Positions 61,865 to 64,000 of a DNA stretch of 64,000 bases are shown here, piece by piece. This DNA is from Escherichia coli (lineage in GTDB: Bacteria; Pseudomonadota; Gammaproteobacteria; Enterobacterales; Enterobacteriaceae), in NCBI RefSeq assembly GCF_017348835.2, contig NZ_CP071375.1. One strand, 5' to 3'. The notes under the pieces were generated by a model. The model was not told the DNA's origin. It worked only from the letters and a program-made list of their open reading frames with translations, and did no database searches. How positions within the stretch are numbered: the stretch's first letter is position 1; every line of letters starts with the position of its first letter. A program made the translations under genes and the position numbers.

Positions 61865-64000
61865 TTACGCCAGTGCCGCTTCGCGCAGGCGAGTTTTCAA
61901 CTTGTTGTACTCGTCAATCACGTACTGCTCGGCGGCGCGCTGATCGGCGATCGGCTCGACGCGCACGGCGCAGTATTTGTATTCCGGCGTTTTCGTAATC
62001 GGGCTTAAGTTTTCGGTAACCAGCTCGTTACAGGCACCAATCCACCACTGGTAGGTCATGTAAATCGCCCCTTTGTTCGGACGATCGCTGACCTGCGCAC
62101 GGGTGATAATTTTGCCTTTACGCGAGTGCACCCAAACCAATGCCTCATCTTCAATACCCAGACGTTTGGCGTCTTCGGTATTGATTTGTGCGTAGCCAGG
62201 TTCATCAGCCAGCGCCGCCAGTGCCGCACAGTTACCGGTCATCGAACGGCAAGAGTAGTGACCAACTTCACGCACCGTTGACAGTACCATCGGGTACTCG
62301 TCGGTGAGTTTGTCGATTGGCGCTACCCAGTCGCAGGTGAAGAACTGCGCCAGACCGTTCGGGGTATCAAACTTCTCTTTAAACAGATAAGAAGTCCCCT
62401 GATCGGCATCTGAAGTATCGCGGCAAGGCCACTGAATGAAGCCCAGTTCGCCCATTTTCTCGTAAGTCGCACCGTAGAAATCCGGGCACAGATGACGCAA
62501 CTCATCCCAGATCTCCTGGGTGTTGTTGTAGTGCATCGGATAACCCATACGGGTGGCGATTTCACTGATGATTTGCCAGTCCGTTTTCAGATCCCATTTC
62601 GGTTCAACTGCTTTGAAGAAACGCTGGAAGCCACGGTCAGCCGCAGTAAACACGCCTTCATGCTCGCCCCACGACGTTGACGGTAAAATAACATCCGCCG
62701 CCGACGCGGTTTTGGTCATAAAGATGTCCTGAACGATGACCAGTTCCAGATCTTCAAAGGCTTTACGTACTGCCGACAGCTCCGCGTCAGTTTGTAGCGG
62801 ATCTTCGCCCATAATGTACGCGGCACGCACTTCGCCATGCGCTGCGCGGTGCGGCAGCTCGCTGATGCGATAACCGGTATGAGCAGGCAGGCTTTCCACG
62901 CCCCAGGCTTTGGCGAATTTCTCGCGGTTAGCCGGATCTTTCACGTACTGGTATCCCGGATACGTATCCGGCAGCGCGCCCATATCGCAGGCACCCTGCA
63001 CGTTGTTCTGACCACGAACCGGGTTTACACCCGCATGCGGCTTACCGAGGTTACCGGTCAGCATCGCGAGGCTGGTCAGAGAACGCACGGTTTCCACGCC
63101 CTGGTAGAACTGGGTTACACCCATGCCCCACAGGATGGCGGCGCTTTTCGCCTGGGCATACATCCGTGCCGCCTGACGAATCTCACTGGCGCTGACGCCG
63201 GTGATATCTTCAACCGACTCCGGCGTGTAGCCTTCAACGATTTTACGATACTCTTCAAAGCCTTCTGTACGGGAAGCGACGAACGCTTTGTCGTACAAAT
63301 TTTCTTCAATAATGACATGGCCCATCGCATTCAACAGCGCGATGTTCGAGCCATTTTTCAGTGCAATGTGCATGTCAGCAATGCGCGCGGTTTCAATTTT
63401 GCGCGGATCGCAGACGATAATTTTCGCCCCGTTACGTTTAGCGTTAATTACGTGATTCGCTACGATTGGGTGGGAATCCGCCGGGTTGTACCCGAAAACG
63501 AACACTAAATCTGTATTATCAATTTCGTTAATAGCATTGCTCATTGCGCCATTACCGACCGATTGGTGCAGACCTGCAACCGATGGTCCGTGTCAGACAC
63601 GAGCGCAGCAGTCAACGTTATTGGTACCAATAACGGCGCGCGCAAATTTTTGCATTACATAGTTGGTTTCGTTACCCGTACCACGCGAGGAGCCGGTCGT
63701 CTGGATGGCATCCGGACCGTACTTCTCTTTGATGGCGCTCAGGCGCTCGGCAACGTAATTCAGTGCCTCATCCCAGGAAACAGGTTCGAGTTTGCCGCCA
63801 CGCTGGCGACGGATCATGGGGGTTTTCAGGCGCGGGGTCAGGATCTGGGTATCGTTAATGAAATCCCAGCCATAATAACCCTTCAGACACAGGGTACCCT
63901 GGTTGGTTTTCCCCTGCGCTGCCTCCGCCCGGACGATTTTGCCGTTATCGACGATCAGGTTGATTTTGCAACCTGATGCGCAATAGGGGCAAACCGTGAC
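61865..64000 (-). CDS. fdhF: formate dehydrogenase H, selenocysteine-containing (N-terminus beyond window end)
   Basis: ORFs 61865..63544 and 63593..63817 are one frame joined through an in-frame TGA; upstream ...NNVDCCARV, downstream HGPSVAGLHQSVGNGAMSNAINEIDN... Confidence 0.92.
63545..63595 (-). other. UGA selenocysteine codon (63593..63595) with adjacent SECIS stem-loop
   Basis: minus-strand mRNA reads UGA-CACGGACCAUCGGUUGCAGGUCUGCACCAAUCGGUCGGUAAUGGCG, consistent with the fdhF SECIS hairpin. Confidence 0.85.

What the first reader, a model, noticed from the sequence alone, without database searches (positions are those of the whole stretch)
63545..63595. fdhF selenocysteine recoding site and SECIS element
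The fdhF frame is interrupted by an in-frame TGA (63593..63595, minus strand), which the ORF track splits into two ORFs. The stop is immediately followed on the mRNA by a stem-loop-forming sequence matching the bacterial SECIS of formate dehydrogenase H. This is a known programmed recoding event, flagged so that it is not mistaken for a pseudogene. The third codon after UGA reads GGA here; I am unsure whether the reference reads GGC (synonymous).
Basis: partly seen in the sequence, partly recalled or inferred. Interest (0 to 1): 0.3.

Follow-up and report, generated by a model that had tools for sequence, protein, structure and literature searches.

The report
fdhF selenocysteine UGA and SECIS hairpin
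This is the textbook selenocysteine-coding UGA and its downstream mRNA hairpin in the E. coli formate dehydrogenase H gene, so it is ordinary and not a pseudogene; the only unusual detail is a rare silent C-to-A change in the non-essential lower part of the hairpin.

Summary
The minus-strand fdhF frame (61865..>64000) has one in-frame TGA at 63595..63593. It is followed by a sequence that matches Rfam SECIS_2 (RF01988) at 80.7 bits (gathering score 70, E = 1.6e-17).

The TGA aligns with Sec140 of the solved E. coli FDH-H structure (1AA6/1FDO). It also falls on the single missing position (129) of the TIGR01591 profile. The 17-nt apical stem-loop that SelB recognises (GGTTGCAGGTCTGCACC) is intact and starts 11 nt after the UGA.

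GGA is the second codon after UGA, not the third.

The A allele is rare. It is exact in 2 of 5420 E. coli records (pig strains PE164 and F2_81, the window's own lineage). It is absent from 119 fdhF loci of other Enterobacterales. It breaks one C-G pair of the lower helix. ViennaRNA predicts a one-nucleotide slipped lower helix of nearly equal stability (-19.0 vs -19.7 kcal/mol) and an unchanged apical hairpin.

Verdict: an already known programmed recoding site, most likely functional. A functional effect of the variant is untested.

The parts
61865..64000 (-). fdhF coding sequence for formate dehydrogenase H, codons 5-715 plus the stop at 61865..61867. The first 4 codons and the promoter lie beyond the window end.
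   Evidence: 1660 bits to PDB 1aa6_A over residues 5-715. TIGR01591 positions 1-128 upstream of the TGA and 130-672 downstream (873.7 bits, cutoff 666.25); annotated as a single fdhF CDS in K-12 and PE164.
63593..63595 (-). In-frame UGA, the selenocysteine codon 140
   Evidence: Aligns with X140 (Sec) of 1aa6_A. Corresponds to the one skipped profile position, 129, of TIGR01591. Conserved as TGA in 119 fdhF-type loci from other Enterobacterales; the search pattern required TGA, so that count is by construction.
63546..63600 (-). Full SECIS element as modelled by Rfam SECIS_2. It comprises an outer helix, a lower helix and the apical stem-loop, and it includes the UGA.
   Evidence: 80.7 bits, gathering score 70, full model 1-55. 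The K-12 allele scores 87.1 bits.
63565..63581 (-). Apical 17-nt stem-loop GGUUGCAGGUCUGCACC, the SelB-binding minimal SECIS. It starts 11 nt after the UGA. The loop GGUC is at 63574..63571 and the bulged U is at 63578.
   Evidence: Exact match. The 17-mer is named as the functional SECIS recognised by SelB in PMC3834832. [quoted passage not shown] The bulged U and the GGUC loop are called important in PMC4489274.
63587..63587 (-). Rare synonymous variant C426A (Gly142, GGC>GGA). The canonical C pairs with G at 63559 in the lower helix; here the pair is an A-G mismatch.
   Evidence: flags the non-canonical pair at model positions 14/42; window and PE164 read A, K-12 reads C; 2 of 5420 records versus 5394 of 5420. 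C in 118 and T in 1 of the 119 fdhF loci of other species, never A or G.

Best explanation
This is the native selenocysteine recoding site of E. coli fdhF. During translation, the UGA at codon 140 is read as selenocysteine rather than as a stop. The mRNA immediately 3' of it folds into the SECIS hairpin. The apical stem-loop (GGUC loop plus bulged U, starting 11 nt after the UGA) binds the C-terminal domain of the specialised elongation factor SelB. SelB then delivers Sec-tRNA(Sec) to the A site in competition with RF2. The product is full-length 715-residue formate dehydrogenase H, whose Sec140 is the selenocysteine at the position seen in the solved structure. Shown here: the sequence, the frame, the model match and the homology. 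Inferred from established knowledge of the E. coli Sec system: SelB binding and Sec insertion. The window's lineage carries a rare silent C>A change in the lower helix. Because the SelB-binding apical element and its spacing are intact, the site most likely still works.
For: There is a single in-frame TGA with intact frame on both sides. The TGA aligns with the Sec140 position of solved FDH-H, with one amino-acid difference (V20I) in 711 residues. The two halves match contiguous parts of one TIGR01591 profile, 1-128 and 130-672. Rfam SECIS_2 scores 80.7 bits against a gathering score of 70. The 17-nt apical element is exact at the 11-nt spacing, with 0.01 matches expected by chance. The literature identifies that element as the part SelB needs (PMC3834832; PMC10945757; PMC4489274). 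RefSeq annotates one uninterrupted CDS. Of 18 nucleotide differences from K-12, 17 are synonymous, which indicates a gene under purifying selection and not a decaying pseudogene. selAB and selC are present in 5425 and 5424 of 5426 E. coli genomes. The variant costs only 0.7 kcal/mol in the 55-nt fold through a slipped lower helix, with the apical hairpin unchanged.
Against: Nothing argues against the recoding site itself. Several caveats apply. Folding energy is no better than shuffled sequence. No compensatory base changes support the lower helix in the cross-species sample, which was conditioned on an identical apical 17-mer. The C>A change breaks a pair that is C-G or U-G in every other genome examined and lowers the model score by 6.4 bits. 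In a 163-nt context the predicted probability of the apical pairs falls from about 0.7-0.86 to about 0.4. The sel genes of this particular strain are outside the window and were not seen directly.
Confidence: 0.95

Rival explanations
1. The site is a working SECIS, but the C>A change in the lower helix measurably lowers selenocysteine insertion in this lineage. It could do so by weakening or re-registering the helix, by reducing pre-recruitment of SelB before the ribosome arrives, or by introducing the rare GGA codon. Less FDH-H would then be made.
For: The position is C in 5394 of 5420 E. coli records. Among the 119 fdhF loci of other Enterobacterales it is C in 118 and T (G-U compatible) in 1, never A or G, although all four bases are synonymous. 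The nearby fourfold-degenerate column 17 varies freely: A 46, T 59, C 14, G 1. The Rfam score drops 6.4 bits. Apical pair probabilities drop in the long-context fold. PMC4513850 argues that the full stem-loop helps recruit SelB ahead of the ribosome and protects against RF2.
Against: The change lies 6 nt 5' of the 17-nt element reported as the functional or minimal SECIS. The spacing is unchanged. The predicted stability loss is only 0.7 kcal/mol because a slipped register restores four pairs. Conservation of C could partly reflect codon preference for GGC/GGT over GGA/GGG (my own knowledge of E. coli codon usage, not tested here). The allele has persisted in two independently sequenced strains.
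Confidence: 0.15
2. The TGA is a true nonsense mutation and fdhF is a pseudogene, or two separate genes, in this strain.
For: A mechanical ORF caller splits the frame at the TGA.
Against: The same 61-mer containing the TGA is exact in 5394 of 5420 E. coli records. The position is Sec in the solved structure. The SECIS follows it. The frame downstream is intact for 575 codons with almost only synonymous changes. The profile match is contiguous across the TGA.
Confidence: 0.01
3. The A at 63587 is a sequencing or assembly error and the real genome reads the canonical GGC.
For: The allele is found in only 2 of 5420 records. The window itself is 100% identical to one of them, PE164, over 25 kb, so it may be the same assembly.
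Against: A second assembly from a different study (F2_81, NZ_CP043542.1) carries the same base. Its 601-bp stretch is 100% identical and its 25-kb flank nearly identical. This is as expected for a shared lineage-specific SNP.
Confidence: 0.03

Closest known systems
E. coli K-12 fdhF SECIS (Rfam RF01988 SECIS_2; Sec140 of formate dehydrogenase H, PDB 1AA6/1FDO)
   Same: Same gene, same genomic neighbourhood (gltP - yjcO - fdhF - mdtP) and same UGA codon 140. The apical stem-loop, GGUC loop, bulged U and 11-nt spacing are identical. 54 of the 55 SECIS bases are identical.
   Different: One base differs: C426A (GGC>GGA, Gly142, window 63587). It replaces the C-G pair at model positions 14/42 with an A-G mismatch. 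The predicted result is a lower helix slipped by one nucleotide. The protein has one conservative substitution, V20I.
Minimal fdhF SECIS used in selenoprotein engineering (17-20 nt, Liu et al. 1998 as cited in PMC10945757 and PMC3834832)
   Same: The window contains the 17-mer GGTTGCAGGTCTGCACC and the 20-mer ATCGGTTGCAGGTCTGCACC exactly.
   Different: The native element also has lower and outer helices that include the UGA itself. The variant lies in that accessory part.
SECIS_3 (RF01989), another Rfam bacterial-type SECIS family
   Same: Weak similarity in the UGA-proximal sequence and the general hairpin layout (33.8 bits).
   Different: The score is well below that family's gathering score of 63, so the element is not a member.

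Membership tests
Bacterial fdhF-type SECIS (Rfam RF01988 SECIS_2) | Covariance-model score at or above the curated gathering score (70 bits) | tested here: met
   80.7 bits, E = 1.6e-17, full-length match 1-55. The K-12 allele scores 87.1 bits.
Bacterial fdhF-type SECIS (Rfam RF01988 SECIS_2) | In-frame UGA inside a selenoprotein gene, at the position occupied by Sec in a characterised homologue | tested here: met
   The TGA at 63595..63593 aligns with X140 of 1aa6_A. It sits at the skipped position 129 of TIGR01591.
Bacterial fdhF-type SECIS (Rfam RF01988 SECIS_2) | Apical stem-loop with GGUC loop and bulged U, starting 11 nt 3' of the UGA | tested here: met
   Exact 17-mer at offset 11. It is folded in the MFE and centroid structures. 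The required features are as listed in PMC4489274.
Bacterial fdhF-type SECIS (Rfam RF01988 SECIS_2) | Fully paired lower helix in the canonical register | tested here: inconclusive
   The pair at positions 14/42 is an A-G mismatch. In the canonical register the energy falls from -19.7 to -14.1 kcal/mol, but a slipped register gives -19.0. According to the minimal-SECIS work cited, this helix is accessory rather than defining.
Bacterial fdhF-type SECIS (Rfam RF01988 SECIS_2) | Binds SelB and directs selenium-dependent UGA readthrough | not testable with these tools
   This needs a reporter assay, 75Se labelling or a binding assay.
Bacterial fdhF-type SECIS (Rfam RF01988 SECIS_2) | Trans-acting machinery (selA, selB, selC, selD) present in the same genome | not testable with these tools
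   None of these genes is in the window, which contains no tRNA. At species level, selAB is in 5425 of 5426 and selC in 5424 of 5426 complete E. coli genomes. The source strain was not checked individually, and selD was not checked.
Formate dehydrogenase H / Fdh-alpha (NCBIfam TIGR01591) | Profile score above the curated cutoff (666.25 bits) | tested here: met
   The part downstream of the TGA alone scores 873.7 bits. The upstream part adds 195.1 bits on profile positions 1-128.
Formate dehydrogenase H / Fdh-alpha (NCBIfam TIGR01591) | Near-identity to the structurally solved E. coli enzyme, including the N-terminal Cys cluster motif | tested here: met
   1660 bits over residues 5-715 of 1aa6_A. 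The sequence CPYCASGC...LCLKG is visible in the translation. The single substitution is V20I.

The most novel reading that the evidence does not exclude
The lineage-specific C426A change may be a natural lower-helix SECIS mutant that alters Sec insertion efficiency. It breaks a pair that is C-G or U-G in every other genome examined here: all but 2 of 5420 E. coli records and all 119 fdhF loci from more than 25 Enterobacterales genera. It could act through helix slippage, through reduced pre-loading of SelB, or through the rare GGA codon two codons after the UGA. It would then be an in vivo test of what the conserved lower helix is for.
Probability: 0.12. Interest if true: 0.3.

Novelty: already known. 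Interest (0 to 1): 0.1.

Why it matters
In practice, annotators and ORF callers must not report fdhF here as a pseudogene or as two genes; it is a single selenoprotein gene. Scientifically the site is textbook. The one new item is a rare natural variant in the accessory lower helix of the best-studied bacterial SECIS. Isogenic reporters could use it cheaply to ask whether the strongly conserved lower helix contributes to recoding efficiency in vivo. If the variant is neutral, as is most likely, it simply agrees with the minimal-SECIS model.

Tried and rejected
(1) Thermodynamic significance. The 51-nt fold is no more stable than shuffles (z = -0.15), so folding energy was dropped as evidence.

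(2) Covariation. An alignment of 37 distinct SECIS sequences gave no pair with changes on both sides, and the shuffle controls were uninformative. The sample was selected for an identical apical 17-mer, so only the lower helix could vary, and there only one-sided, wobble-compatible changes were seen. This neither supports nor contradicts the helix.

(3) Primary mutagenesis papers. Liu et al. 1998 (PMC147357) and Sandman et al. 2003 (doi 10.1093/nar/gkg304, PMC153732) are not held. Statements about the minimal SECIS are therefore taken second-hand from PMC3834832, PMC10945757 and PMC4489274. The review PMC8659212 and the SelB preprint added nothing specific.

(4) SECIS_3 membership was rejected: 33.8 bits against a gathering score of 63.

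(5) Pseudogene, two-gene and sequencing-error readings were considered and rejected (see rivals).

(6) I looked for the Sec tRNA in the window and found none. The sel genes could only be checked at species level.

(7) One of the 120 cross-species pattern hits (L081, a Comamonadaceae MAG) has unrelated flanks. It was set aside as a chance match. About 0.5 such matches are expected for 20 fixed bases in roughly 6e11 scanned positions (my own estimate).

Full report
**Observation**

On the minus strand the window ends inside a long reading frame running from 64000 down to a stop at 61867..61865. Translating it gives 711 codons with exactly one internal stop, TGA at 63595..63593. That is codon 136 of the window frame and residue 140 of the full protein, because the window cuts off the first four codons. 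The mRNA from the UGA onward reads UGACACGGACCAUCGGUUGCAGGUCUGCACCAAUCGGUCGGUAAUGGC.

**What it is**

- The translated frame, with a placeholder at the TGA, matches the solved E. coli formate dehydrogenase H chain 1aa6_A (also 1fdi, 1fdo, 2iv2, 7z0t) at 1660 bits over residues 5-715. The TGA position aligns with the X at residue 140, the selenocysteine.
- The segments on either side of the TGA match contiguous parts of one NCBIfam profile, TIGR01591 Fdh-alpha: positions 1-128 upstream and 130-672 downstream. The TGA therefore stands for exactly one residue of a single protein.
- The gene order gltP - yjcO - fdhF is that of K-12. RefSeq annotates fdhF as one uninterrupted 2148-nt CDS in both K-12 and strain PE164, with no pseudogene flag.
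- Against K-12 the gene shows 18 nucleotide differences in 2136 nt. Seventeen are synonymous and one is V20I, the pattern of a gene under purifying selection.

**The RNA element**

- Rfam's bacterial SECIS_2 model (RF01988) matches 63546..63600(-) end to end at 80.7 bits (gathering score 70, E = 1.6e-17). The related SECIS_3 model scores far below its threshold.
- The 17-nt apical stem-loop GGUUGCAGGUCUGCACC lies at 63581..63565 and starts 11 nt after the UGA. The combined motif occurs once in the window, against 0.01 expected by chance.
- Papers held in the library name this 17-mer as the functional SECIS recognised by SelB (PMC3834832).
[quoted passage not shown] 1998 (PMC10945757).
- They give the canonical 42-nt UGA+SECIS sequence with GGC, and note that the bulged U and the GGUC loop are important (PMC4489274).
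- Both the 51-nt and 55-nt folds form the apical hairpin. The folding energy is not better than shuffled sequence (z = -0.15), so stability on its own is not evidence.

**The GGA/GGC question**

- K-12 reads GGC. The window and PE164 read GGA. Both encode Gly142. GGA is the second codon after the UGA, not the third.
- A 61-mer centred on the site is exact in only 2 of 5420 E. coli records, PE164 and F2_81, both from pigs. The K-12 version is exact in 5394 of 5420.
- The last 25 kb of the window is 100% identical to PE164 and nearly so to F2_81, while the next best genomes are 98.6% identical. The allele is therefore a marker of one lineage. Its presence in two separate assemblies argues against a sequencing error.
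Of these, 119 are fdhF-type loci from more than 25 Enterobacterales genera. This base is C in 118 of them and T in one (Buttiauxella brennerae, which keeps a G-U pair). It is never A or G, whereas a neighbouring fourfold-degenerate site varies freely.
- In the Rfam structure the C pairs with G at model position 42 (window 63559). The A gives an A-G mismatch and costs 6.4 bits: 87.1 for K-12 against 80.7 here.

**Predicted consequence**

In the 55-nt element the K-12 allele folds into the Rfam structure at -19.7 kcal/mol. The A allele would drop to -14.1 in that register. Instead it is predicted to slip the lower helix by one nucleotide, forming G13-C44, A14-U43, C15-G42 and C16-G41 with C40 bulged, at -19.0 kcal/mol.

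In a 163-nt context the apical pair probabilities fall from roughly 0.7-0.86 to about 0.4. I weigh this lightly, because translating ribosomes keep the upstream sequence unfolded. The variant lies outside the minimal SelB-binding element and leaves the spacing intact. [quoted passage not shown] The most likely outcome is a functional SECIS with no or little loss of efficiency. A measurable loss is possible (about 0.12-0.15) but untested.

**Trans-acting factors**

The window contains no tRNA, and the sel genes lie elsewhere in E. coli genomes. At species level selAB is found in 5425 of 5426 and selC in 5424 of 5426 complete genomes. The source strain almost certainly has them, but this was not shown for it individually.

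**Limits**

- No compensatory double changes were seen in the lower helix. The cross-species sample was conditioned on an identical apical 17-mer, so covariation could not be assessed properly.
- The primary mutagenesis papers were not available.
- Conservation of C at this site could partly reflect codon preference rather than RNA structure (my own knowledge, not tested).

**Verdict**

It is not a pseudogene. The novelty class is "already known". The rare lower-helix variant is a minor curiosity worth a footnote and perhaps a reporter assay.

Noticed in passing
window 60893..61081 (gltP-yjcO spacer); compare L001 1796..2436: The spacer is about 190 bp here and about 640 bp in K-12. blastn shows that one 149-bp window segment matches K-12 at offsets 113 bp apart, so K-12 carries about 4-5 tandem copies of a unit present once here. 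The unit overlaps an Rfam naRNA4 (REP/BIME-type) hit at 61007..61077.
   Followed up: partly
window 63953..63955 (-), fdhF codon 20: This is the only amino-acid difference from K-12 and the PDB FDH-H sequence: V20I (GTC>ATC). It lies in the N-terminal iron-sulfur domain and is conservative.
   Followed up: partly
window 39001..64000: This 25-kb stretch is 100% identical to strain PE164 (NZ_CP114128.1, pig, Nanjing) and nearly identical to F2_81. Every other complete E. coli genome is at most 98.6% identical. The window therefore comes from a sparsely sampled lineage that is rather divergent in this region.
   Followed up: partly
window 43024..43164 (-); 714..863 (-); 578..648, 10249..10319, 50402..50473 (+): Other Rfam matches above their gathering scores: sraL sRNA (153 bits), STnc430 (68.6 bits) and three further naRNA4 / REP-type elements.
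   Followed up: no
L023/L024, L036/L037, L052/L053, L057/L058, L076/L077, L088/L089, L092/L093 and others: Several Enterobacterales genomes (Pluralibacter gergoviae, Cedecea neteri, Klebsiella oxytoca and K. michiganensis, Kluyvera georgiana, Raoultella ornithinolytica, Silvania confinis) carry two separate loci with the same fdhF-type UGA+SECIS. This suggests two selenocysteine-containing fdhF paralogues per genome.
   Followed up: no
L065 (CACSKA010000007.1, titled Chryseobacterium sp. 18061): A contig labelled Chryseobacterium carries the exact enterobacterial UGA+SECIS pattern. A sister record from what appears to be the same project is a Citrobacter. Contamination or mislabelling seems likely but was not checked.
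   Followed up: no
L081 5645..5675 (Comamonadaceae MAG): The exact 17-mer, with a TGA 11 nt upstream, sits in otherwise unrelated sequence. I treated it as a chance match, but I did not check whether it lies in a formate dehydrogenase gene.
   Followed up: no
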